DNA of 64,000 bases from a virus. The stretch's first letter is position 1, and every line of letters starts with the position of its first letter. Below the pieces are notes generated by a model. It worked only from the letters and a program-made list of their open reading frames with translations, ran no database searches and had not been told where the DNA came from. The stretch lies in IMG/VR virus record IMGVR_UViG_3300047557_003034, positions 1-64,000 of that record, one strand, 5' to 3'. The translations under genes and the position numbers were made by a program. This document shows, piece by piece, positions 1 to 61,543 of this stretch.

Positions 1-1217
1 AATTCGTAGACAATGGACAAATAAACTTTTTGAACGAAGCCAAAAAGCCAGAAGGAGTTTACGGACATAATCCAAATGCCGAAAATCAAAAGATCAGAGG
101 CATCGATTATGTAAACTACTATCAAGCTCAAAAAGGCATACACTATGAGCTCTCTAAGATGGGAGAAATCACAGATGAGAACTACAAAAAAGCTCGCAGA
201 AAGGCAGTTGAAACAATACTTAAAAACCCAGACGCATATAAAGATCTACAAATAGCAAACTTCAAGCACATCAAAAAGCTTGATAAGGATCTTGAAATGA
301 AGGAGGTTAAGAAAGATAACCACATTGACAAAGCAAACGGTCTAAAAGTCGTTAAGAAAGATGCACCAGCAAGTGCTAACGCATCAAAAAAGGAGTCAGC
401 AAAGAAGCACAAAGTAGCTCAGATGACTCAAGTACCTAAGAAAGCTAAGGGAGTTGAGGTGATGGAAGTTCCCGGCAAAGAAAAAGTACTACAGGAAGGG
501 ATGAAAGGAAAGTTTCATTCTGATGATAATACCTACACCTACGATCACTTAATTAATACTGATTCTCCAAATAAAGAACAGCTAGCTAAAGTAAGAGCAG
601 CTATTGAAGCTGACAAAAAAGAACTAGAGCAGAAAGGTAAAAAGGCTAAACTTGTTAAAGGTGATACAGTACCTTATCTAGAATTGATTGACAAAGTTAA
701 AGCTCTCAAAGAACATATCTTGGAAGATCTCATGGGTTTCAACGAAGCCTTCGAAGACATCAACAAAGGATCTAGAGTAAGGAAGAAAAGTGTAACAGAT
801 TACGATGCTGCAAGTGTTGGAAATGTAGAAGATTTTGATGGTCACATAGCCATAGTCAAATGGGACAACGGTGAAACTGAGCATGTTCAGAAAAACGTAT
901 TGACTAAGAAAAGCATACCACAACATCCTGAAGCAAGAGAGAAGTTTGGAAACATTCCCGACAGTCCATACATGACAAAAGAGGATGAGTCTACTGAGAA
1001 GCATGATAGAATAAGTGAGTTAAAGGAGAAGCTTGTAAAGGCTCTAAAGAAGCTAAAAAAAGAAGGTGCTGTTGCCAAAACAGCGGATACTGATATAAAC
1101 GTAGCTCTAGGTCAAAACCCAGCACAAGTAGCAAATACTGCAAGACAGATGGAAAAGCAACTGGGTCAGCAAATAAAAGTAACAGATACCAAAACAGGAG
1201 TAACTAGAAACGTATAA
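1..1217 (+). CDS. 5'-truncated Lys/Glu-rich protein, probable internal head/prohead-core protein
   Basis: Frame is open back to the window start (TTG at 30 is not a real start). Highly charged, many L/I-x-E sites, directly upstream of the prohead protease. Confidence 0.5.
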   Translation, partial: FVDNGQINFLNEAKKPEGVYGHNPNAENQKIRGIDYVNYYQAQKGIHYELSKMGEITDENYKKARRKAVETILKNPDAYKDLQIANFKHIKKLDKDLEMKEVKKDNHIDKANGLKVVKKDAPASANASKKESAKKHKVAQMTQVPKKAKGVEVMEVPGKEKVLQEGMKGKFHSDDNTYTYDHLINTDSPNKEQLAKVRAAIEADKKELEQKGKKAKLVKGDTVPYLELIDKVKALKEHILEDLMGFNEAFEDINKGSRVRKKSVTDYDAASVGNVEDFDGHIAIVKWDNGETEHVQKNVLTKKSIPQHPEAREKFGNIPDSPYMTKEDESTEKHDRISELKEKLVKALKKLKKEGAVAKTADTDINVALGQNPAQVANTARQMEKQLGQQIKVTDTKTGVTRNV

Positions 1218-1218
1218 T

Positions 1219-1845
1219 ATGGCGAAACAAGTTCTCATAGAGCATATGTTTTTTGAGCCTGCTCCGCAGCAGCTTACCGAGGCTAGATACAATCCAAATA
1301 AGCCTTTTATTGTATCAGGCAAGGTGCAAGCAGCTAACAAACCTAATGCCAATAAGCGTATCTACGATTACGAGATATTAGCAAAGCAAGTACAATTGTA
1401 CATAGATGGACCGATTAAGGAAAGAAGAGCATTAGGTGAATTAGATCATCCTGATTCTTCTGTCATAAACCTAAAGAACGTATGCCACAACATAACTAGA
1501 TTATGGTGGCAAGATAAAGATCTATACGGTGAATTTGAAATCTTAGATACTCCCTCAGGTAACATACTCAAAGAATTATTTATAGCTGGAATTACTGTAG
1601 GTGTTTCTAGTAGAGCTTTGGGATCTGTAAGTCCAATAGGAGAAGGCCTTGTGACAGTTGAGGATGACTTAGAGATTATTTGTTGGGATTTTGTGTCTAC
1701 ACCAAGCACTTTTGGTGCTTACGTAAAACCAGTTTCAGGGCTGCAAGAGTCGTATAATCCACAATCAATAGGCAATCAAGATCGAGTAAATAAAATAATA
1801 TCAGACATCATCTGCACACAATCAGGAGTGTGCTGTATAACTTAA
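1219..1845 (+). CDS. prohead maturation protease (T4 gp21-like)
   Basis: Motifs N-A-N-K-R-I-Y, ALGELDHP, GVSSRALGS and WDFVSTPS; lies before scaffold and MCP. Confidence 0.93.
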   Translation: MAKQVLIEHMFFEPAPQQLTEARYNPNKPFIVSGKVQAANKPNANKRIYDYEILAKQVQLYIDGPIKERRALGELDHPDSSVINLKNVCHNITRLWWQDKDLYGEFEILDTPSGNILKELFIAGITVGVSSRALGSVSPIGEGLVTVEDDLEIICWDFVSTPSTFGAYVKPVSGLQESYNPQSIGNQDRVNKIISDIICTQSGVCCIT

Positions 1846-1850
1846 GAACT

Positions 1851-2105
1851 ATGAAACAATACATCAACGAAGTAAGAAAGATGCAAAAAATTGCTGGAAT
1901 CCTTAATGAATCTCAAATAGAAATTGGAGCTAGATTTTTAGATACAGAAAAAGATCAGGTTATAACTATTAAAAAAATACTAGGTAACTCTGTTCACGTG
2001 GAGTCGGATAAACTCAAAGGACACGTGTGGCAGTGGCCAAAAGAGGAAGTTGAAAATCAAATTGACTCGGGAAGGTTACAAAAGCAAGAGGATCAAATAG
2101 ATTAG
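1851..2105 (+). CDS. small putative internal head protein with N-terminal RKMQKIAG motif
   Basis: ATG at 1851 just after the protease stop. N-terminus INEVRKMQKIAGILNES resembles the scaffold C-terminus. Confidence 0.55.
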   Translation: MKQYINEVRKMQKIAGILNESQIEIGARFLDTEKDQVITIKKILGNSVHVESDKLKGHVWQWPKEEVENQIDSGRLQKQEDQID

Positions 2106-2125
2106 AATAGCATAATAGTAAAAAA

Positions 2126-2449
2126 ATGAAACACCAACTCAACGAAATAAAAAGACTGCAGGAACTTGCTGGAGTTGTTGACGAAAACGAAGTCAACTCT
2201 CTAGATGATCCGAACATCTACGACGATGTTCCGTCTGTACGGATTACTATCGACGATGAAGACGGCAGGCCTAAAATGTTTCTTGAACTGAGTGCATTTT
2301 TTCACGACGAAGGTGATGGTAAAATAGATCTGCTCAGAGATAATCCCATGCTACAAGAGTTGCTAATGCAAGCAATCCAGCAACAAGCTCAGAAGATGTT
2401 TAGGCATACGGTACACAGCGTACTTGGTAAGCCTTTCGGAATCAAGTAA
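2126..2449 (+). CDS. small putative internal head protein with N-terminal RLQELAG motif
   Basis: N-terminus LNEIKRLQELAGVVDENE; located in the head module. Confidence 0.55.
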   Translation: MKHQLNEIKRLQELAGVVDENEVNSLDDPNIYDDVPSVRITIDDEDGRPKMFLELSAFFHDEGDGKIDLLRDNPMLQELLMQAIQQQAQKMFRHTVHSVLGKPFGIK

Positions 2450-2489
2450 ATAGTTATCCTCAAAATTTTACGTTTTCAAGGGGGACGCA

Positions 2490-2497
2490 CTATTTAT
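2490..2497 (+). promoter_or_regulatory. putative late promoter CTATTTAT (scaffold/MCP)
   Basis: Recurrent intergenic motif upstream of structural genes. Confidence 0.7.
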
Positions 2498-2590
2498 GAT
2501 AGTACGTTATTTTAATATGACGTCATAGTAATACTTTTACACTTATATTGCTACTAATTCTAATTAGCAATCAATCGAACCAAATTTAAG

Positions 2591-3760
2591 ATGGAAAATC
2601 AAGAATTGTACAAACAAGCAATCCTTGATGCAAAGGCAGTTCGCGAGACAGCTATGGCAGCAGCCAGAACAACTCTTGCCGAGCATTTTGAGCCTTACAT
2701 TAAGGAAACTATGGAAAAGACCCTCAAACAAGAAGAGATCGAAGAAACTTCTGAAATGGAAATGGAAGAAGCAGAAGATCCAACAATGGAAGGAATGAGT
2801 TATATGGACGAAAGTGCATTAGACGAGATTCTTGCTGAGTTGGATGCTCTCGAAGAAGCCAGCGACGATCAAATTGAAGAAGGTAAAGGACAAGGCATGA
2901 CTGCAGGATATTCTGAAAAAGCTCATGTTGAAAAAGGTAAAACTGGCTACGATCATAAAGCTGGAAAATCATCTGGTGATCACAAACTTCACGAAGCCGA
3001 CGACGAAGATGGCGATGATGAAGAGAAAGATGACGACGATGAAAAAGACAGCGCTCCTAAAGCTGCAAAAGCACCAGGAGCTGAAAAAGGACCTGCAGCA
3101 GATGTTGTAGATCTAACAGTTGCAGATTTCGAAGATATTATCAGAAGCGTAATCAGTCAATACCTCCCAGGTGCTGGTGAAGAGATGGGTGAACCACTCG
3201 ATGCCGACACAGAAATGGCAGCAGACATGGGTATGGGTGGAGACGAAGAAGGTGGCATGCCAGCTGGTGATGACGCAGATCTTAGCCTCGACGAAATCCT
3301 AGCTGAGCTAGAAGCTGAAGAAAAGAAAATGGAAGAAGCTGCATCAACTCCAGGTAGCATTCAAAATGCAGGAGCTTATGAAGTTTCTCAAGTTGAAGAG
3401 ATGAAGAAAGAATTGAACGAAGCAGTAAAGACCATTAAGGCTCTCAAAGCTGAACTCAATGAAACTAATCTATTCTCTGCTAAAATGCTCTATGTAAATA
3501 AAATCTTCAAGTCTAAAAACTTGACAGAATCACAGAAGAGAAAAGTTATCGATGCATTTGACAGGAACACAAGCATTAAAGAAGTAGAAAATACCTATAA
3601 GACCCTACTTGAGTCTCTTGCTAGCGATAGTAAGAAAGGTTCACTTAAAGAGTCTGTAGGATTTGCCTCAAAATCAATTGGCGGAGCACCAGCTAGGCCA
3701 ATCGTAGAAGCTGATGCCTTCGTATCAAGGTGGCAGCAATTGGCTGGTATTAAAAAATAA
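2591..3760 (+). CDS. prohead core/scaffolding protein
   Basis: Very acidic and coiled-coil-like, many L/I-x-E sites, between protease and MCP, ends RWQQLAGIKK. Confidence 0.8.
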   Translation: MENQELYKQAILDAKAVRETAMAAARTTLAEHFEPYIKETMEKTLKQEEIEETSEMEMEEAEDPTMEGMSYMDESALDEILAELDALEEASDDQIEEGKGQGMTAGYSEKAHVEKGKTGYDHKAGKSSGDHKLHEADDEDGDDEEKDDDDEKDSAPKAAKAPGAEKGPAADVVDLTVADFEDIIRSVISQYLPGAGEEMGEPLDADTEMAADMGMGGDEEGGMPAGDDADLSLDEILAELEAEEKKMEEAASTPGSIQNAGAYEVSQVEEMKKELNEAVKTIKALKAELNETNLFSAKMLYVNKIFKSKNLTESQKRKVIDAFDRNTSIKEVENTYKTLLESLASDSKKGSLKESVGFASKSIGGAPARPIVEADAFVSRWQQLAGIKK

Positions 3761-3779
3761 AAACTAAAACACATTTAAA

Positions 3780-5477
3780 ATGTCAAACCTCGTACAATCA
3801 CTCCTAGAGAGTGCTAACCCGTACCAAGATCAACTTGGTGTTAGTCAGAGGCTTGCTAAGAAATGGTCAAAATCTGGTTTGCTCGAAGGTCTTAGAGACT
3901 ACGATCGCAACAACATGGCCATTATCTTGGAAAACCAAGCCAAGCAACTCGTAATGGAACAATCAAGCACAGGCGGTAACGTAACCAACGGTGCAACCTT
4001 CACTCCCGGCAACGGTGAGCAGTGGGCTGGTGTAGCTCTTCCACTTGTTCGTAAGATCTTTGGACAGATTGCAGCAAAAGAATTCGTTTCTGTTCAGCCT
4101 ATGAATCTCCCTGCAGGTCTAGTGTTCTATCTTGACTTCCAGTATGGTAACAACATTCCTAAGCCTTTCCAAGCCGGACAATCACTCTATGGTACTCTTA
4201 ACCAAACCCTAAACAGCGGATTTGGTAACTTAGCAGAAGGTGGTCTTTATGGTCAAGGTCGCTTTGGATATTCTATCAACCAGTTCTCTGCATCTTATGC
4301 ATCTGGTTCAACTACTGCAGCTCTTGCAACTTTCCAAGACGTAAACTTTAACTCTGCCTACTCTTCTTCTATTGTTGGTGGAACAATGATTAAAGTATTC
4401 GTTAACACTGGTTCTTTAAATCTTGACACCAATGGTGTTCGTGCATTCGAACTTTCTGGTTCTTCTGGTGGCGGTGGTGCTGTTAATCCTAACTCAGTAG
4501 TTTCTGATTTCACTCAGATTCAAGGTGCTAACTTGGTGTTCATCGTAAGTGGTTCTTCACTTGCTAACGTACAGCTTAGCCTTGCAACTGGTTCAACTTT
4601 GTTCTACAACAAAGCTACCAACTTCCAAACTCGTGGTGACTTCGAAGATGCTCCAAACGATACTCCAGCTCCGTTCTCTAATCCGAACGCTGCATCATCT
4701 GCTTCTATCGTTATCCCTGAGATCAACGTACAGATGAAGTCTGAGACTATTTCTGCTAAGACTCGTAAGTTGAAAGCACAATGGACTCCAGAATTTGCAC
4801 AAGACCTTAACGCTTATCACAGCCTTGACGCTGAAGCTGAGTTGACTGGCATGCTTTCTGAGTACATCTCTCTTGAGATTGACCTCGAAATCCTTGACAT
4901 GTTGATTGAGAACGCTCAAACTGTAGCTAACTGGTCTGCTCAAATTGGTAACCAAATCAATGCTGCTGGTACAGCTTACACAAGCAACACAGCAGGTGCT
5001 TACTACAATCAAATGTCTTGGTTCCAAACACTTGGTATTAAACTCCAAGCTGTATCTAACAAGATCCATCAGTTGACTCTCCGTGGTGGTGCTAACTTCC
5101 TTGTATGTTCTCCAACTGTAGCTACTATCTTGGAATCTATCCCTGGATTTGCAGCTGACACAGATGGTGCAGCAGATACCATGAAGTATGCCTTCGGTGT
5201 ACAGAAGATTGGTGCTCTCAACAGCCGTTACAAGGTTTACAAGAACCCTTACATGACTGAGAACACAATCCTCATGGGCTTCCGTGGCAATCAGTTCCTT
5301 GAGACTGGTGCCGTTTATGCTCCGTACGTACCACTTATCATGACTCCTTTGGTGTACGATCCAAATACCTTCACTCCAAGGAAAGGTATTATGACTCGCT
5401 ACGCTAAGAAGATGATTCGTCCTGAGTACTATGGTAAGGTATACGTAAGTGACCTTCAGGTAGCTCAAGCTAGCTAA
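3780..5477 (+). CDS. major capsid protein (T4 gp23-like)
   Basis: PLVRKIF, VSVQPMNLPAGLVFYLDF, AKTRKLKAQWTPEFAQDLNAYHSLDAEAEL, YAPYVPL and FTPRKGIMTRYA motifs. Confidence 0.97.
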   Translation: MSNLVQSLLESANPYQDQLGVSQRLAKKWSKSGLLEGLRDYDRNNMAIILENQAKQLVMEQSSTGGNVTNGATFTPGNGEQWAGVALPLVRKIFGQIAAKEFVSVQPMNLPAGLVFYLDFQYGNNIPKPFQAGQSLYGTLNQTLNSGFGNLAEGGLYGQGRFGYSINQFSASYASGSTTAALATFQDVNFNSAYSSSIVGGTMIKVFVNTGSLNLDTNGVRAFELSGSSGGGGAVNPNSVVSDFTQIQGANLVFIVSGSSLANVQLSLATGSTLFYNKATNFQTRGDFEDAPNDTPAPFSNPNAASSASIVIPEINVQMKSETISAKTRKLKAQWTPEFAQDLNAYHSLDAEAELTGMLSEYISLEIDLEILDMLIENAQTVANWSAQIGNQINAAGTAYTSNTAGAYYNQMSWFQTLGIKLQAVSNKIHQLTLRGGANFLVCSPTVATILESIPGFAADTDGAADTMKYAFGVQKIGALNSRYKVYKNPYMTENTILMGFRGNQFLETGAVYAPYVPLIMTPLVYDPNTFTPRKGIMTRYAKKMIRPEYYGKVYVSDLQVAQAS

Positions 5478-5502
5478 TAACAGATAGCTGATCATAACAA
5501 AT

Positions 5503-5529
5503 AGCCGGTCCCGTAAGACCGGCTTTTTT
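5503..5529 (+). terminator. rho-independent terminator after MCP
   Basis: AGCCGGTC-loop-GACCGGCT followed by a T run. Confidence 0.85.
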
Positions 5530-5541
5530 GTTTTCTGCAAT

Positions 5542-5550
5542 CTATTTATT
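5542..5550 (+). promoter_or_regulatory. putative late promoter CTATTTATT
   Basis: Motif 12 nt before ATG 5563. Confidence 0.7.
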
Positions 5551-5562
5551 CTAAAGGAACAC

Positions 5563-5877
5563 ATGCAAGATAAGCAAGCAATAAGGTTGCAAGAGTTAGC
5601 AGGATTGCAAGAGCTGCTCAACGCACCTAAATTGACAGGTAAAATAGAGTATGACGGCTACGAAATGGATACATTTAAGGTAGGTAGCAAGACTTACTAC
5701 GGGCATCCTCGCAAGAAGGATACAAATGCAAACTACACAGACAAGAGATTAGTCTACAAAGAAGACGAATTAGAAAACCTAAAAGACGTCATACATCAGC
5801 TGAAGAAAGGCACCGATGTAGAAGATATAGATCTACCACCAAACGAATACATAAAGAATCCAGAGTTCAGAGGTTAA
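5563..5877 (+). CDS. small putative internal head protein with N-terminal RLQELAG motif
   Basis: N-terminus QAIRLQELAGLQELL; has its own late promoter and terminator. Confidence 0.55.
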   Translation: MQDKQAIRLQELAGLQELLNAPKLTGKIEYDGYEMDTFKVGSKTYYGHPRKKDTNANYTDKRLVYKEDELENLKDVIHQLKKGTDVEDIDLPPNEYIKNPEFRG

Positions 5878-5884
5878 ACTAAGT

Positions 5885-5910
5885 AGCTGGTCCAAACGAC
5901 CAGCTTTTTT
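5885..5910 (+). terminator. rho-independent terminator
   Basis: AGCTGGTC-loop-GACCAGCT followed by a T run; paralogous to the 5503 hairpin. Confidence 0.85.
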
Positions 5911-5925
5911 ATTTACACTAACAAA

Positions 5926-5934
5926 CTATTTATT
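5926..5934 (+). promoter_or_regulatory. putative late promoter CTATTTATT
   Basis: Motif upstream of phoH and the neck genes. Confidence 0.65.
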
Positions 5935-5950: not shown

Positions 5951-6628
5951 ATGAATCAACTAGCGGGGAAGGAAAAACGAAAGCCAAAGAACCCAGTAAA
6001 GTTTCAAATTCAACTAAATGAAGAACAAAAGGTAGCAAAGCAGTTAATACTTGATAACACCATAACAATCCTAACAGGTCAGGCTGGTTCAGGTAAAACG
6101 TTAGTTGCATGTCAAGCTGCACTAGATTCTCTTTTCAGTAGACAATTTGAGAAGATAATCGTAGCAAGACCAGTAGTTACAGCAAGAGAAGAGATTGGAT
6201 TTTTGCCGGGTGGAATGAAAGAAAAACTTGATCCCTACATTGCACCCATCTACGATAACATGTACAGGTTGTATGATAAGAACAAGATTGATAGCTTGAT
6301 TATGGAAGGGCAAATTGAGATTATTCCGTTTGCTTTCATGCGTGGACGCAACTTTTCCAATGCTTTTATCATCCTAGATGAAGCACAAAATGTGACAGAT
6401 ACGCAGATGGAGATGGCAATATCAAGGCTATGTGAGGGATCTAAGATGGTTATAGTAGGAGATGTTGGGCAGATTGACCTAAAAGATAAGAAAGAATCAG
6501 CTCTAATCTTCCTAAACAAGGCAGTGCCTGGTGCTGTTCACGGTGTGCAATCGATGCATCTGAAGCATAATCACAGGCATCCTATAGTAGAAGAAGTGTT
6601 AAACATATATAAACAACTACGTAACTAA
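5951..6628 (+). CDS. phoH: PhoH-like ATPase
   Basis: GQAGSGKT Walker A, IGFLPG, FMRGRNF, ILDEAQN, GDVGQID and RHPIV motifs. Confidence 0.95.
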   Translation: MNQLAGKEKRKPKNPVKFQIQLNEEQKVAKQLILDNTITILTGQAGSGKTLVACQAALDSLFSRQFEKIIVARPVVTAREEIGFLPGGMKEKLDPYIAPIYDNMYRLYDKNKIDSLIMEGQIEIIPFAFMRGRNFSNAFIILDEAQNVTDTQMEMAISRLCEGSKMVIVGDVGQIDLKDKKESALIFLNKAVPGAVHGVQSMHLKHNHRHPIVEEVLNIYKQLRN

Positions 6629-24746: not shown

Positions 24747-27700
24747 ATGGCATACTTACAGTGTACGGTCATTACTGGGTCTCAAAATGTATTGAGTGTT
24801 ATAGGTTCAGGTAGTGCCACGACATCTTCTTTGTTATCTGTCGATGGAAATAGCGGAAGGCTGTTCCAAGTAACCGACACATTATCTGGTTCTCTCTTCT
24901 CTGTCAATACAGTATCGGGTCTACCCGTAATAGAGGCATTTTCCGACAACACTGTCCGCATTGGACAGTACGGTCAGAAGGCACTTTTTGTATCACAATC
25001 CAAGGTAGGAGTTGGCAAGGAAGACTCACTTAACGGAACACTAGACGTATCAGGCAGCTTAACTGTTACCGGATCAACCAATATCAACGGTAATCTCACA
25101 GGATCTAATGCTCTTTTGACAGGAACTTTGACAGTGAACACGATCAATGTCAGCATACTGTCATCTTCAATAAGCTTCTTTACGGGTTCTACGATATTTG
25201 GATGCTCAATTTCCAATCAACATCAATTTACGGGATCTGTTAGCATAACAGGAAGTTTAAGAACATGCGGTCCCATGTGCTCCACTACAACAATGGCAAT
25301 AGGTAGTGGATCTACAGCATCAGGCATCTACAGTAGTGTAGCAGGAGGTAGATTGAACACAGCATCAGGAAACTATTCACATATAGGAGGCGGTAGTGGT
25401 AGCCTAGCATTAGGTGTAAATTCGTTTATAGGCGGTGGTCAGTTTAACTGTATTCCTGCCGGTGGTCAATGTGCAGTAATAGGAGGCGGTCAATACAACA
25501 CTGGATCGTCGGTGTTAGGTTTCATTGGTGGTGGTACCAATAACAATATGTCTTGTTTTTACGCTGTGATTGGAGGTGGTATATCAAATACAACAAGTGG
25601 ATACGGCTCAGTAATCGCAGGAGGTAACATAAACAATAACTCAGGTAGATGGGGATTCTTAGGTGCTGGACGCTCAAATCAGCTATCAGGAAACTGTACT
25701 GCTATCGTTGGTGGTGGTAGTAACACGGTTAGTGGATTCTACAATGCAATAGTAGCAGGATGTGCTAATACTGTTAGTAATAGTGGTAGTTTCATTGGTG
25801 GAGGCTTTGGTAACACGGTATTAGCAGATACCGGATCAATAGTAGGTGGTCGTAGTAATATAATCTGCTTAGGTGGCTCCGGTTCATTTATAGGTGGTGG
25901 CCAAAGTAATACAGTCTCCGGTAAGTGCAGTGCGGTAGTAGTAGGTCAGCTTAATAGTGCTACTGGTGAAAATGGATTTGTAGGCAGTGGTTATCAAAAC
26001 TCATTCACTGGTTTTAGAGGTGGTATTGTAGCTGGTCAGCAAAATACGTTATCATCCGTTTACGGATTTATAGGTTCAGGTCTCTCAAACGTAGTTGCAG
26101 CTAGTTCTACCTCAATAATAGCTGGTCAAAATAACTGTGCTATTGGAGCACTTTCCATTATAGGAGGTGGTAACTTCAACAGAATGTCAGCTAACTGCGC
26201 AGCAGTAGTAGCTGGTACGTACAACACGGGTTCAGGAGCAGGCAGCTTCATAGGTGCTGGTAGTGGAAGTGTGGCAGCAGGAGCTCTAACATTTATAGGA
26301 GGCGGTCAATTTAACTGTGCATCAGCTAACTATGCAGCAGTAGTAGGAGGCTTTCAAAATACAGGTTCAGGTACGTTTAGCTTTGTGGGTGGAGGCGGTG
26401 GAAATACTGCAGCAGGTGCATGTTCTACAGTAGGCGGTGGTGAAATAAACATTGCAAGCAGCCAGATATCAACGGTATCAGGTGGATATAGAAACTATGC
26501 AGCAAGCTACGCTGCAACTGTAGGGGGTGGATTGCTAAACTGTGCATGTGGATACAACGGAACTGTATCAGGCGGATACAGAAACTCAGCATCAGGAAGC
26601 TACTCTTTTGTAGGAGGAGGTAAGCAGAACCTAGCACTAGCAGTATCAAGTTCAGTAGTAGGAGGCTGGCTTAACTGTGTAACTACTAATGGTACTGGTT
26701 CATTCATAGGAGGTGGTCAGGGCAACACAGTAACAGGACGACTATCAACAGTAGTAGGTGGTGCTGGTAACCAAGTTACCGGAAACTGCTCAACAATATC
26801 TGGTGGATACTTTAACGTAGCTACTAATACATTAGCAGCAGTAGTAGGTGGTCGGAATAATCAAGCACGAGGAGAAAATAGCGTAGTAGGTGGATATTTC
26901 AACTGTGCTTGTGGTGTTTCAAGCATAGTAGCAGGCGGACACAATCAGACTGTGCTAAGCAGTTATGGCACTGTAAGTGGAGGTTACAACAACTGTATTA
27001 CATCAACTCTAGCTGATTCATCGACAATTAGTGGTGGATATCAAAATAGAATATCAAGCATCCGTTCCGTCATAGCAGGAGGTCAAAATAACGTTATCAG
27101 TGGAAACCGATCATTCATAGGGGGTGGTCGACAAAATACAGCATCAGGCAACTATGCATCAGTAGCAGGTGGTAGTGGAAGTGTAGCATCAGGACTTAAC
27201 TCATTCGTAGGAGGCGGTCAATTCAACCTAGCAAACGGTGCATGTGCATCGGTAGTAGGTGGCTTTCAAAACACTGGTTCAGGTGGATTTAGCTTTGTAG
27301 GAGGCGGTACAGGAAGTATTGCAGCAGGACTTTATAGCTCTGTAATAGGTGGATTCATAAACTGTGCTAGCCAAGTCTACGCAACAGTAGGTGGTGGTGG
27401 TAGGAATCTTTCAAGTGGAAACAGTACGACAGTAAGTGGTGGCTATGGTAACCAAGCAACAGTCACCTTCGCAAGTGTGTTAGGTGGTGTAGGCAACGTA
27501 GCTACGGGACATACCTCAACTGCGGTAGGAGGACAATCCAACTCAGCAACAGCTTGTCATTCGTTTGTAGGAGGTGGTGCATCAAATACGGTAGCAGCAG
27601 AAACAGGATCTATAGTAGGTGGTCGTAGTAACAGCATAACTTCAAACGGCTCTGGTTCATTTATAGGTGGTGGTCAAGGTAACATAGTCTCAGGACAGCT

Positions 27701-42919: not shown

Positions 42920-45292
42920 ATGCCTCCTCCCCAAGGTCCAGGTAACATAACTGATCAAAGCTCGTTTAACATATCTGAAACAGACGTAAAACGTCTAGAA
43001 GCTCAGGAACTATCTCTACGTAATATACTGAAGCTCAAGAAAGAGATTAAGAAAGCTTCAAAGGAGCAAACAACAATCTACGACGAGCTAGCTAAGTTGA
43101 CTGGTCAAGAAGCGCAAAACTCACGAGCTTACAAAGCTTCAGTAGCGTTCACAACTCAACTCGAAAAGAATCTAGAACGAGCCAGAGCACAAGGTAATAC
43201 ACGTGCTGTACGCACAACTCAAAATCTAATAAAAGCTCAAAAAGCACAGCAGGACCTACTAGCAAAAACACTTGGTGGTAGTTTAAGAGCTCAAGAAGTT
43301 GAAGCAGCCAAGAGGAGAGTCATGCTTGAAAAGGAGAGAGATCTCATAAAAAACATCAACAAACAGAGATCAATAGGTCAGAAAATAGGATCACTTTTCA
43401 TGAGTGATCAAAAAAAACAGTTACAAATTGACATAGCTCGTGCACAAGCAGGAGGTGGTATAAATCAACCCCCTGGAGGTGACGGTGGTGGAGCCGGAGG
43501 TGGTGGCGGAGCTGGCGGTGGCGGTGGCACTGGAGGCGGTGGTGGAGGCCAAGGAGGCGGTGGTGGCAAAGGTAAAGGTGCTGTCGGTATTTTAGGTGCG
43601 TTAGCAGGTTTAGGTGTAGTTGGAGGTATTATAGCAGCTATAGGAATGGGTATTAGCAAGATAATGGCACCCATTAAAGCTCTAGGAAATGCACTAAAAG
43701 CAGGAGTAGTTGGATCTTTAGCACAAGCATCTGGCTTAGTAAGTGGTGGTATAGGTGGTGGATACGGAGTAGGAGGAGGTGCTGTATCGGGTGAAGGAGC
43801 TACAAGTATACTAGGCGGACTTCAAGACATAGCTAAATCAATTCCTTTCATAGGCGGACTTTTAGGTGGTCTGGTTGGAGCTTTGAAAGGTGTTGTCGAT
43901 CTTGTTTTAGGTGTAGATCAAGGCCTAACAAACTTCAGCAGAAACCTAGCCATATCAAAAGAGGATGCTAGAGGCTTAAAATTACAATTTGATGGCATAG
44001 CTGCTGCTAGTGGTAACATAGTTGTCAACTCGACAAGGTTGATGGAGTCGCAAGTTGAGATGGGTAAAGCACTTGGTATAACCAATACCCTAACAGAGAG
44101 TCAACTAGTTGCCAACGTAAAGCTAAAAGAGTTAGCAGGTCTTGAACTTGAAACTCGAAAGGAGTTACTAGCTACTAGCATAATAACAGGTCGCAACGAA
44201 GAAGAGCTTACAAAGAGCATACTTGGTCAAGTAAAGTCTTTCCAACTAGCAACTGGTATTGCATTTGATTACAAGCAAGTACTAGGAGAAGCTTCTAAAT
44301 TAGGTGGTGCACTTGGATTACAATTTGCTAAATATCCAGAGAAGATAGTTAAAGCTTTGATGTCAACGAAAGCTCTTGGATTTGAGCTTAAGAGTTTGGA
44401 TCAAACTGCAAACAGCTTCCTAGATTTTGAAAGCAGCATATCAAAGGAATTTGAAGCTCAGATCTTAACTGGAAAAGAGTTAAATTTAACCAAAGCAAGA
44501 GAAGCTGCTCTCAACAACGATCTAGTTACTTTAGCTGGTGAAATAAATAAAAACATAGGAGACTCAACTGCATACCTAAAACTTAATAGGATTCAACAGG
44601 ATTCTATTGCTGAGGCTGTTGGTATGACTAGGGATAGTTTAGCAGATGCACTTAAGCAGCAAGAGATGTTTCGGAGGATTGGTGCTAAAGATCTCAAACA
44701 AGCTCAAGAAAAGCTGAGAGTTTTACAGCAACAAGGTAAAACACAGGAAGAGATTACTAAGATGCTTGGTGAAGATGCTTACAACTACATTACACAAACA
44801 TCTACAGCAGAGAAGTTAGCTGAGTTGATGAATAAGATAAAAACTGTATTTGTGCAGTTTGTTGAAAACTCAGGACTACTCGACTTCATAACAAACCCAG
44901 CAAAGATAGAATCATTTGCAAGAGGATTACTTAACACTATTGCAGGAGCAGTATCGTTGATAGGTGACATAATTGCAACTGTTTTACGTGCAATAGGATC
45001 ACTACCCTTTACAGATAAAGCCAAGTTTGAGAACTTAGCTAATCAAGTTCAAGGTGGTTCATCAAATTTAGCAGGTAGTATTCAAGGTGTACAGACAAAT
45101 TTTGGACCAGCAGCAGCTTCAATAAGCGATACAGTAGCAAATGGTGCAACCTCAAAAGCACCAGCACCGGCAGCAGGTACTTCGGGTAAAGCTGCAAAAG
45201 GAGAAGAAAATTACCAAATCATCTACTTAACAATAGATGGTGAAGTGGTTGCAAAGAAAGTATTAATTAACGCAGCAAAAGTGCACCAATAA
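42920..45292 (+). CDS. tape measure protein
   Basis: Helical, Ala/Gly/Leu/Lys-rich with hydrophobic Gly segments; FLDFESSISKEFEA..LTGKELNL.KARE; follows the chaperone. Confidence 0.82.
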   Translation: MPPPQGPGNITDQSSFNISETDVKRLEAQELSLRNILKLKKEIKKASKEQTTIYDELAKLTGQEAQNSRAYKASVAFTTQLEKNLERARAQGNTRAVRTTQNLIKAQKAQQDLLAKTLGGSLRAQEVEAAKRRVMLEKERDLIKNINKQRSIGQKIGSLFMSDQKKQLQIDIARAQAGGGINQPPGGDGGGAGGGGGAGGGGGTGGGGGGQGGGGGKGKGAVGILGALAGLGVVGGIIAAIGMGISKIMAPIKALGNALKAGVVGSLAQASGLVSGGIGGGYGVGGGAVSGEGATSILGGLQDIAKSIPFIGGLLGGLVGALKGVVDLVLGVDQGLTNFSRNLAISKEDARGLKLQFDGIAAASGNIVVNSTRLMESQVEMGKALGITNTLTESQLVANVKLKELAGLELETRKELLATSIITGRNEEELTKSILGQVKSFQLATGIAFDYKQVLGEASKLGGALGLQFAKYPEKIVKALMSTKALGFELKSLDQTANSFLDFESSISKEFEAQILTGKELNLTKAREAALNNDLVTLAGEINKNIGDSTAYLKLNRIQQDSIAEAVGMTRDSLADALKQQEMFRRIGAKDLKQAQEKLRVLQQQGKTQEEITKMLGEDAYNYITQTSTAEKLAELMNKIKTVFVQFVENSGLLDFITNPAKIESFARGLLNTIAGAVSLIGDIIATVLRAIGSLPFTDKAKFENLANQVQGGSSNLAGSIQGVQTNFGPAAASISDTVANGATSKAPAPAAGTSGKAAKGEENYQIIYLTIDGEVVAKKVLINAAKVHQ

Positions 45293-59485: not shown

Positions 59486-61543
<2,058 letters not shown>

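What the first reader, a model, noticed from the sequence alone, without database searches (positions are those of the whole stretch)
1851..5604. Shared R-x-Q-x-L/I-A-G peptide: candidate capsid-loading tag copied from the scaffold C-terminus
Seen: the scaffold ends FVSRWQQLAGIKK (about 3719-3757). Three otherwise unrelated small proteins begin with the same peptide: INEVRKMQKIAGILNES (1851), LNEIKRLQELAGVVDENE (2126) and QAIRLQELAGLQELL (5563). In each case a hydrophobic-x-E site follows. Known: scaffold C-termini bind the coat protein in HK97-fold phages such as P22. T4 loads internal proteins through a short N-terminal targeting sequence that gp21 removes after L/I-x-E. Inference: cargo proteins borrow the scaffold's coat-binding helix as an N-terminal address, are encapsidated, are clipped by the 1219 protease and may be injected with the DNA. 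This would be a modular protein-delivery system.
Basis: partly seen in the sequence, partly recalled or inferred. Interest (0 to 1): 0.82.

Follow-up and report, generated by a model that had tools for sequence, protein, structure and literature searches.

The report
Scaffold-tail address tag on phage proteins
Three unrelated small proteins in the head-gene cluster of this T4-like phage begin with a 17-20-residue peptide that copies the tail of the phage's own capsid scaffold and ends at a probable head-protease cutting site. It is most likely a clip-off label that loads them into the capsid, and the same label heads over a thousand protein clusters in public sequence data, but loading has not been shown.

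Summary
The motif [RK]-x-Q-x-[LI]-A-G-[ILV] occurs four times in all six frames of the window, against about 0.04 expected. Three copies lie at residues 8-12 of unrelated small proteins and one is the scaffold C-terminus.

In 80 uncultured relatives the scaffold tail is nearly universal. The N-terminal copy heads 49 ORFs with 21 unrelated bodies. A profile of the tag finds 1,243 protein clusters in 1.84 billion proteins, and 149 of the best 150 carry it within the first 20 residues.

A Glu four residues after A-G follows 29 of 35 tags. An I-V-E site precedes the scaffold tail. Both fit T4-type prohead proteases, which cut after Glu. Cargo tags follow the scaffold tail of their own clade. T4 proper, cyanophage and Campylobacter phage scaffolds lack the tail.

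Best reading (about 0.65): a removable prohead-loading tag that mimics the scaffold tail, a new variant of the T4 capsid-targeting sequence. Binding to the capsid protein, actual cleavage and injection are untested, and one co-fold gave no verdict.

This scan noted similar tags on other DNA (e1-5632900, e1-5698144, e1-5368238).

The parts
1219..1845 (+). Prohead protease, gp21 type (the proposed tag-removing enzyme)
   Evidence: Pfam Peptidase_S77 at 2.9e-25 and PHROG 207 head maturation protease at 2.2e-46.
1851..2105 (+). Tagged 84-aa protein. The tag is residues 1-20 (1851-1910) and ends I-L-N-E. The body is an ORFan.
   Evidence: No homologue among 5.8 billion proteins. No Pfam family.
2126..2449 (+). 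Tagged 107-aa acidic protein. The tag is residues 1-20 (2126-2185) and ends V-V-D-E. It belongs to body family 1, conserved between protease and scaffold in 13 of the ORFs found.
   Evidence: AF2 model: tag helix at residues 2-14, a low-confidence linker at 15-19, then a small alpha/beta body.
2591..3760 (+). Scaffold protein (gp22 position). An I-V-E site at residues 371-373 is followed by the 16-residue tail (3710-3757) that carries the motif.
   Evidence: It lies between the S77 protease and the Gp23 capsid gene. It has pI 4.36 and 17 [LI]-x-E sites. There is weak collinear similarity to T4-type gp22 (BLASTP 0.033, hhalign E 0.0029). The tail is conserved in 78 relatives' ORFs.
3780..5477 (+). 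Major capsid protein, Gp23 family (candidate receptor of the tail and tag; untested)
   Evidence: Pfam Gp23 at 2e-76. It has a propeptide with an invariant Glu at residue 60 in V-M-E.
5563..5877 (+). Tagged 104-aa protein. The tag is residues 1-17 (5563-5613) and ends L-Q-E. It lies on a self-contained cassette after the capsid gene.
   Evidence: It has only one homologue (86% identity) in 5.8 billion proteins. The gene is absent at this position in locus L006, whose capsid protein is 96% identical.
5502..5550 (+). Terminator hairpin plus a CTATTTAT box upstream of the 5563 gene
   Evidence: Sequence read. The same unit lies directly before PhoH in L006.
5884..5934 (+). Second terminator hairpin plus a CTATTTAT box, closing the cassette before PhoH

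Best explanation
The shared peptide is a removable prohead-loading tag. Its core, h-x-R-h-Q-x-L-A-G-h, is an amphipathic helix capped by the invariant Ala-Gly.

Proposed mechanism:
1. At the scaffold C-terminus the peptide is the anchor that holds the scaffold in the assembling prohead. By analogy with P22, 80alpha and herpesvirus scaffolds, the likeliest site is the inner face of the Gp23-type capsid protein.
2. Unrelated proteins that carry the same peptide at their N-terminus use the same docking site and are built into the prohead.
3. The gp21-type protease (1219-1845) then cuts after Glu on the payload side of the anchor. In the scaffold this is I-V-E just before the tail. In cargo it is h-h-x-E just after the tag. 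The cut frees the scaffold fragments and the cargo bodies inside the shell.

Shown: the module, its strictly terminal placement, its modular spread, the flanking Glu sites, and the co-variation of cargo tags with scaffold tails.

Inferred: docking, cleavage, the identity of the receptor, and the fate of the cargo.
For: - Four sites against about 0.04 expected, all inside the head module.
- In this contig plus 85 loci (2,459 ORFs), a loose motif is N-terminal 51 times, at the scaffold C-terminus 78 times and internal only 11 times. All hits are on the capsid-gene strand.
- 49 tagged ORFs fall into 21 unrelated body families. None of the 20 related-locus tagged ORFs tested had a Pfam match above the curated cut-off, and the window's own three have none either.
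- Glu lies at A-G+4 in 29 of 35 unique tags, and at A-G-12 in 48 of 56 scaffold tails (plus 6 with Asp). The background for [LIVM]-x-E is 2.5% per residue.
- T4-type proteases all cut after Glu and remove N-terminal propeptides of internal proteins (PMC5694885).
- The scaffold has 17 [LI]-x-E sites.
- Cargo tags of this clade score 17.1 bits on their own clade's scaffold-tail matrix and 0.3 on that of a distant jumbo-phage clade. That clade's tags score 12.0 on their own matrix and 3.3 on this clade's.
- The tag profile finds 1,243 clusters. Of the best 150, 149 carry the tag in the first 20 residues and 146 of those have the Glu. Their bodies form 100 families.
- Synonymous codons vary freely in the tag.
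- The AF2 model shows the tag as a separate helix before a low-confidence linker.
- In PA5oct the only real ORF other than the scaffold with the motif is gp249, a virion protein found by mass spectrometry. This is weak support, because 93 of 461 PA5oct proteins are virion-associated.
Against: - No experiment on any member.
- Most cargo bodies are acidic (median pI 4.57, 105 of 133 below 6). This suits expelled core proteins at least as well as proteins kept beside DNA.
- The tag itself contains an L-N-E or L-Q-E site, so the position of the cut is uncertain.
- Tagged genes in the isolate immuto and in complete relatives often lie far from the head genes, among metabolic or early-type genes.
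- The Mel-JY01-like clade keeps the scaffold tail but has no N-terminal tags within 7 kb of the capsid gene.
- T4's own targeting sequence is reported to act through the core, not the shell (PMC5694885).
Confidence: 0.65

Rival explanations
1. The loading function is the same but the receptor differs. The tag does not touch the capsid protein. It joins the scaffolding core, as reported for the T4 targeting sequence, by packing against scaffold tails or another core, portal or protease component.
For: [quoted passage not shown] Identical helices on scaffold and cargo could associate with each other. Nothing here identifies the receptor.
Against: A helix of about 12 residues capped by Gly is short for a stable helix bundle. 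In the systems I know from the literature (P22, 80alpha, herpesviruses) conserved extreme C-terminal scaffold tails bind the shell protein. A protease site placed exactly at the base of the tail is the herpesvirus release arrangement.
Confidence: 0.3
2. The tagged proteins are not delivered cargo. They are accessory core or filler proteins, like T4 gp67 and gp68, which help build or size the prohead and are then degraded and expelled with the scaffold.
For: Family 1 (the 107-aa protein) sits between protease and scaffold in 13 of the ORFs found. It is acidic and has a further L-Q-E site. Most bodies are acidic. T4 gp67 and gp68 are small core proteins cut into fragments (PMC5694885).
Against: One hundred unrelated body families among 133 proteins and near-ORFan status fit fast-evolving effectors better than conserved assembly parts. 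The same holds for presence or absence as cassettes and for tagged enzymes (NT5C nucleotidase, HAD hydrolase, amidase). T4 internal proteins show the same pattern of diverse bodies with only the tag conserved (PMC3012670).
Confidence: 0.25
3. The peptide is a leader for a process unrelated to the capsid, for example a RiPP-type or export leader, or a tag for timed degradation. Its likeness to the scaffold tail would then be coincidental.
For: Conserved N-terminal leaders followed by hypervariable bodies also occur in peptide natural-product systems. Some tagged genes lie far from the head genes.
Against: The same 10-residue core ends the protein encoded just upstream of the capsid gene: 78 ORFs in this clade's loci, 50 in the Mel-JY01-like clade and 31 in the jumbo clade. 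Cargo tags follow the scaffold tail clade by clade. Bodies are ordinary proteins of 29-765 aa. The peptide is charged rather than signal-like.
Confidence: 0.04
4. The repeat is a DNA or RNA element (a recombination module or translation-initiation region), or a chance resemblance, with no function as a peptide.
For: The 5563 gene sits in a cassette with repeated terminator and promoter-like units.
Against: Four sites against 0.04 expected. The invariant Ala and Gly use all four codons, Leu six and Arg five. One copy lies at a C-terminus. Placement in reading frames is terminal.
Confidence: 0.01

Closest known systems
Capsid targeting sequence (CTS) of phage T4 internal proteins IPI-III and Alt (Mullaney and Black 1996, as reviewed in PMC3012670 and PMC5694885)
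   Same: A short N-terminal peptide on diverse, fast-evolving proteins. A hydrophobic-x-Glu site follows it. The genome encodes an S77 protease, a gp22-position scaffold and a Gp23 capsid protein. Only the tag is conserved among the cargo.
   Different: The sequence is unrelated and about twice as long. The core of the tag duplicates the scaffold C-terminal tail, which the T4-type gp22 lacks (RB51). The scale is far larger, with 1,243 clusters. Most bodies are acidic. Nothing is shown experimentally.
Herpesvirus scaffold and protease (pre-VP22a / UL26): a C-terminal tail binds the major capsid protein and the maturation-site cut releases it (from my own knowledge)
   Same: A conserved extreme C-terminal scaffold tail with a protease site directly before it. 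A second protein gains entry by carrying the same tail. The protease fold is related to gp21 (PMC5694885).
   Different: In herpesviruses the tail is shared through nested in-frame genes and is always C-terminal. Here it is placed at the N-terminus of unrelated genes, with the cut on the other side.
Staphylococcal phage 80alpha scaffold and SaPI1 CpmB (from my own knowledge)
   Same: Two different proteins share a terminal helix that resembles the scaffold's capsid-binding end.
   Different: It is a single hijacker that redirects capsid size, and the helix is C-terminal. It is not a family of cargo and is not linked to a protease site.
Encapsulin cargo-loading peptides (reviewed in PMC8229669)
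   Same: A short terminal peptide containing Gly and hydrophobic residues. It is portable between unrelated cargo and loads them into an HK97-fold shell.
   Different: Encapsulin peptides are not removed. Encapsulins have no scaffold, protease or DNA. No sequence relation was tested here.
Phage P1 DarB N-terminal capsid-targeting signal (PMC9024508)
   Same: An N-terminal signal sufficient to load a protein into a myophage head.
   Different: It is known for a single protein. P1 has no separate scaffold, and no likeness to a scaffold tail is reported.

Membership tests
T4-type capsid targeting sequence system | The peptide sits at the extreme N-terminus of the targeted proteins | tested here: met
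   The loose core motif starts at residue 9-11 of the three window proteins. 149 of the best 150 profile hits carry the tag in the first 20 residues.
T4-type capsid targeting sequence system | The tag is followed by a prohead-protease site (hydrophobic-x-Glu) | tested here: met
   By sequence only. Glu at A-G+4 in 29 of 35 tags and in 146 of 149 profile hits. Cleavage itself was not tested.
T4-type capsid targeting sequence system | The genome encodes a gp21-type protease, a gp22-type scaffold and a gp23-type capsid protein | tested here: met
   Peptidase_S77 at 2.9e-25 and Gp23 at 2e-76. The scaffold is assigned by position, composition and weak gp22 similarity (hhalign E 0.0029).
T4-type capsid targeting sequence system | Sequence likeness to the T4 tag itself | not tested
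   I recalled the T4 tag from memory and ran no alignment. Only the first M-K and one Tyr of the 84-aa protein seem to agree. The A-G core has no T4 counterpart that I know of. This is therefore filed as an analogue, not a member.
T4-type capsid targeting sequence system | The tag is sufficient to encapsidate a foreign protein, and the tag is removed in heads | not testable with these tools
   This needs virion proteomics or reporter fusions in a cultured member such as phage immuto.
Scaffold tails that bind the capsid protein (P22, 80alpha, herpesvirus type) | Direct contact of the tail with the capsid protein | not testable with these tools
   The only available test, a single co-fold job, returned no verdict, which counts neither for nor against binding (see Tried and rejected). 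A real test needs prohead cryo-EM, cross-linking or peptide pull-down.
Scaffold tails that bind the capsid protein (P22, 80alpha, herpesvirus type) | A conserved extreme C-terminal peptide on the scaffold | tested here: met
   78 scaffold-position ORFs in this clade's loci, 50 in the Mel-JY01-like clade and 31 in the jumbo clade. Also the isolates immuto, Mel-JY01, RM378, PA5oct and XacN1.
Encapsulin cargo-loading peptide | An encapsulin shell gene with the peptide retained on the cargo | tested here: not met
   The shell here is a Gp23 phage capsid protein with protease and scaffold. Glu sites imply removal of the tag. This is an analogy only.

The most novel reading that the evidence does not exclude
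A very large group of far-T4 and jumbo phages, infecting Bacteroidota, cyanobacteria, Rhodothermus and proteobacteria, uses one portable docking peptide that binds the same pocket on the inner face of the Gp23-type capsid protein as the scaffold tail. Any gene that acquires this peptide has its product packaged, clipped free and delivered with the DNA. The result would be an open, fast-turnover arsenal of pre-made effectors of more than a thousand families. The system would also be the phage counterpart, and possibly the ancestor, of encapsulin cargo-loading peptides.
Probability: 0.25. Interest if true: 0.85.

Novelty: new variant of a known kind. Interest (0 to 1): 0.65.

Why it matters
How tailed phages choose which proteins to pack beside their DNA is understood for only a few cases, mainly T4 and P1. 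What the T4 targeting sequence binds is still not settled.

Here the tag is the same peptide as the scaffold tail, with protease sites placed in mirror image. That gives a concrete and testable model: one docking site, shared by scaffold and cargo, and released by one protease.

It also labels, by sequence alone, more than a thousand otherwise unannotatable small phage protein clusters as candidate head-loaded proteins. These are a natural place to look for injected anti-defence factors. The model also suggests a portable tag for loading proteins into phages of Bacteroidota.

Tried and rejected
- Co-fold of the capsid protein (alignment A1) with the 36-residue tag alignment (A2). No verdict: ipSAE 0.00 in two runs and controls not run. 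This counts neither for nor against binding.
- tblastn of the 25-residue tag against 50,697 phage records at E 10: no match, as the query is too short.
- HMM search of a 20-residue tag alignment in five phage genomes: the first-look filter found nothing, so it is uninformative. I replaced it with degenerate DNA patterns and six-frame scans.
- Pfam and PHROGs on representatives of the tagged families. No Pfam match reached its curated cut-off; the only sub-threshold hits were DUF7553 and an LRR domain on L006:2951-3442. PHROGs gave one weak 'head maturation protease' hit (E 0.0053) on a jumbo-clade protein.
- Foldseek of the AF2 model against the PDB: nothing at E 0.001 or better.
- ESM Atlas on two bodies: no usable hit.
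- Full-text search for six versions of the motif string: no paper.
- Rejected as chance: the match at the N-terminus of a GroEL-like ORF at 72801-74462 of the contig (outside the window) reads to me as ordinary chaperonin sequence. That reading is from recall; no family search was run on it.
- In the jumbo isolates XacN1 and slurp01, loose DNA-pattern hits did not exceed the reversed-pattern control.


Full report
**What is in the window**

The window is the first 64 kb of a 77,361-bp IMG/VR virus contig, about 41% complete. Its first 9 kb form a T4-like head module on the + strand:
- a conserved protein of about 400 aa, cut at the contig end (3-1217)
- a Peptidase_S77 prohead protease (1219-1845, 2.9e-25)
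- two small ORFs (1851-2105, 84 aa; 2126-2449, 107 aa)
- an acidic 389-aa ORF in the scaffold position (2591-3760)
- a Gp23-family capsid protein (3780-5477, 2e-76)
- a 104-aa ORF (5563-5877)
- PhoH (5951-6628)

The nearest isolates are distant. They are Flavobacterium phage immuto (capsid protein 58% identical), Microcystis phage Mel-JY01 (50%) and Rhodothermus phage RM378 (37%).

The scaffold assignment rests on several points. The ORF lies in the gp22 position. It has pI 4.36 and 17 [LI]-x-E sites, 4.4 per 100 aa against 1.4-3.4 in its neighbours. It also shows weak collinear similarity to T4-type gp22 (BLASTP 0.033; profile comparison E 0.0029 over 55 columns).

**Check of the observation**

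The motif [RK]-x-Q-x-[LI]-A-G-[ILV] has exactly four sites in the six-frame translation of the window, at 1878, 2153, 3728 and 5584. Nucleotide shuffles of the window give a mean of 0.04. The whole 77-kb contig also has only these four, against 0.014 from residue shuffles of its ORFs.

Three sites start at residues 8-10 of small ORFs and one is the scaffold C-terminus. Each N-terminal copy is followed by a hydrophobic-x-Glu site. The three bodies are unrelated once the tag is removed.

The copies use different codons. Across 34 distinct tags of the clade the invariant Ala and Gly each use all four codons, Leu six and Arg five. Selection therefore acts on the peptide and not on a nucleic-acid element.

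**The same arrangement in relatives**

A scan of IMG/VR with the capsid protein returned 80 loci at 64-96% identity. I called ORFs of 40 aa or more in these loci, the four isolate or megaphage loci L001-L004 and the whole contig (2,459 ORFs, 426,682 aa). A loose form of the motif then lies:
- within 35 residues of the first Met 51 times
- within 8 residues of the stop 78 times, all but one in the ORF just upstream of the capsid gene (L054 has a second, 302-aa tail-bearing ORF)
- internally only 11 times

Every hit is on the capsid-gene strand.

The 49 N-terminally tagged ORFs (82-560 aa) fall into 21 body families with no BLAST similarity at 1e-4. None of the 20 related-locus ORFs tested had a Pfam match above the curated cut-off.

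The tagged genes occupy variable slots in a fixed gene order: portal, 283-aa protein, 300-aa protein, [slot], 400-aa protein, protease, [slot], scaffold, capsid protein, [slot], PhoH.

**Anatomy of the tag**

The tag consensus is M-K-x-x-[LI]-N-E-[IV]-K-R-[LM]-[QK]-x-[LI]-A-G-h-h-x-E. The scaffold consensus is A-P-K-x-P-I-V-E-[SA]-D-x-F-[VI]-x-R-[MW]-Q-x-L-A-G-I-K-stop. The shared core is h-x-R-h-Q-x-L-A-G-h.

Glu lies four residues after A-G in 29 of 35 unique tags. It lies twelve residues before A-G in 48 of 56 unique scaffold tails, with Asp in six more. The background for [LIVM]-x-E is 2.5% per residue. The putative cut is therefore always on the payload side of the shared peptide: after it in cargo and before it in the scaffold.

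T4-type and related prohead proteases all cut after Glu in a short motif. They remove N-terminal propeptides from internal proteins and often cut propeptides at several sites (PMC5694885). The capsid protein keeps an invariant Glu at residue 60 in V-M-E. By my recollection this matches the position of the T4 gp23 maturation site; I ran no alignment.

An AF2 model of the 107-aa family (mean pLDDT 70.5) shows three parts. The tag forms a separate helix at residues 2-14. It breaks at the A-G into a low-confidence linker at 15-19. A small alpha/beta body follows.

**Breadth**

The scaffold tail is also present in these isolates:
- immuto, Mel-JY01 and RM378
- jumbo phages PA5oct and XacN1
- in degenerate form, RsoM2USA and a PBECO4-like phage

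It appears in 50 ORFs across the 80 Mel-JY01-like loci and in 31 ORFs across the 32 loci of a distant jumbo-phage clade. It is absent from the gp22 of a T4-type phage (RB51), a cyanophage (ACG-2014j) and a Campylobacter phage.

N-terminal tags occur in this clade. In the jumbo clade they occur in a different dialect, M-D-x-N-x-L-R-K-L-A-G-L at residue 6-7, sometimes in two or three copies (33 hits). I found none within 7 kb of the capsid gene in the Mel-JY01-like clade.

Cargo tags follow their own clade's scaffold tail. Tags of this clade score 17.1 bits on its scaffold-tail matrix and 0.3 on that of the jumbo clade. Jumbo-clade tags score 12.0 on their own matrix and 3.3 on this clade's. Such co-variation is expected if tag and tail serve one receptor, or if tags are repeatedly copied from the resident scaffold.

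**Scale**

A profile of 29 tags (36 positions) was searched against 1.84 billion representative proteins. It gave 1,243 clusters at E 0.001 or better. Among the best 150:
- 149 carry the tag within the first 20 residues, and 146 of those have the Glu at A-G+4
- 70 have a second h-x-E a few residues later
- lengths run from 29 to 765 aa, with a median of 114
- 133 bodies of at least 30 aa form 100 BLAST families
- median body pI is 4.57
- only four Pfam families appear, in three or four proteins (NT5C nucleotidase, HAD hydrolase, Amidase_6 and a PT26-6P helical domain)

A few proteins carry two or three tags in one frame.

The window's 84-aa protein has no homologue among 5.8 billion proteins. 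The 104-aa protein has one.

**Where tagged genes lie**

In immuto the two tagged genes are gp230 and gp083. Both are annotated from the same Met that I infer, and both sit among nucleotide-metabolism genes far from the head module.

In four relatives that are 75-100% complete, a strict DNA pattern finds the scaffold tail plus 0-4 tagged genes per genome, some more than 50 kb from the scaffold. This count is a lower bound.

In the window, the 5563 gene is a self-contained cassette. In locus L006, whose capsid protein is 96% identical, the same terminator and CTATTTAT box lead straight into PhoH. Here the tagged gene with a second terminator and box is inserted between them.

**Experimental hints**

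There is only one. In PA5oct the motif occurs in two real ORFs. One is the scaffold. The other is gp249, which the record marks as a structural protein found by ESI-MS/MS. In gp249 the motif is internal. Because 93 of 461 PA5oct proteins are virion-associated (PMC7318152), this is weak support.

**Interpretation**

The best-supported reading is a removable prohead-loading tag that mimics the scaffold tail. It is an analogue of the T4 capsid-targeting sequence, which in T4 is the only conserved part of a diverse set of internal, partly anti-restriction proteins (PMC3012670; PMC5694885). I put this at about 0.65.

The receptor is open. Scaffold tails in P22, 80alpha and herpesviruses bind the shell protein. 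The herpesvirus arrangement of a protease site at the base of the tail matches what is seen here (both statements are from my own knowledge). The T4 sequence, however, is reported to act through the core. My single co-fold of capsid protein and tag gave no verdict.

The fate of the cargo is open too. Its diversity, ORFan status and cassette turnover suggest delivered effectors. Its acidity, and the conserved position of family 1 next to the scaffold, suit gp67/gp68-like core proteins that are degraded and expelled. A leader unrelated to the capsid and a nucleic-acid element are both unlikely, for the reasons given under the rival explanations.

**Novelty**

No paper in the searchable library contains the motif strings. 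No Pfam family covers the tag. The kind of system, a clip-off N-terminal head-targeting peptide, is known from T4 and P1. The new elements are the identity with the scaffold tail, the mirror-image protease sites and the scale.

Earlier notes of this scan describe similar scaffold-copying leaders on other DNA: e1-5632900, e1-5698144 and e1-5368238, and magrovirus cases. They are unchecked AI notes and I did not use them as evidence.

Noticed in passing
window 44126 (ORF 42920-45292, 790 aa): The long protein that follows the tail-chaperone gene, probably the tape measure, has an internal K-L-K-E-L-A-G-L-E-L-E-T-R stretch. It resembles the tag and is followed by L-x-E sites. The stretch is conserved in the orthologues of two complete relatives (G001 at 26140, G002 at 60949). 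I cannot tell whether this is a chance likeness kept by ordinary conservation or a further use of the peptide.
   Followed up: partly
L006:3461-4684, L017:3111-4286 and L001:3668-4750 (orthologues of window 3-1217): The conserved protein of about 400 aa upstream of the protease begins M-K-N-I-Q-A-Q-Y-Q-D-L-L-E-G in relatives. Its start is cut off in the window. From memory this looks more like the T4 targeting sequence and ends in L-L-E, so this clade may use two kinds of head-targeting leader.
   Followed up: no
window 5502-5550 and 5884-5934; also 2489-2496: A CTATTTAT box follows each terminator hairpin and also precedes the scaffold gene. It may be this phage's late-promoter element. The unit brackets the 5563 cassette, which is missing in L006.
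   Followed up: partly
proteins P0004-P0008, P0049 and P0142: Some database proteins carry two or three tags in one reading frame, or a tandem duplication of the tag. They may be natural polyproteins of tagged modules or fused gene calls.
   Followed up: no
alignment A5: A few tagged proteins are recognisable enzymes: an NT5C-type 5' nucleotidase (also matching HAD hydrolase) and an Amidase_6 protein. If loaded, these would be enzymes carried in the head.
   Followed up: no
L131:5202-5756 (Mel-JY01-like clade): A 184-aa protein just upstream of the scaffold ends with the same tail as the scaffold, so in that clade the peptide may be reused at C-termini rather than N-termini. In clade A, L054 has a similar case: a 302-aa ORF ending at about 5490 with the tail, besides the scaffold.
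   Followed up: no
contig G000 72801-74462 (beyond the window): The phage appears to encode a GroEL-like chaperonin. I inferred this from the N-terminal sequence only and ran no family search. Its N-terminus matches the loose motif, apparently by chance, and the same match is seen in relative G004.
   Followed up: partly
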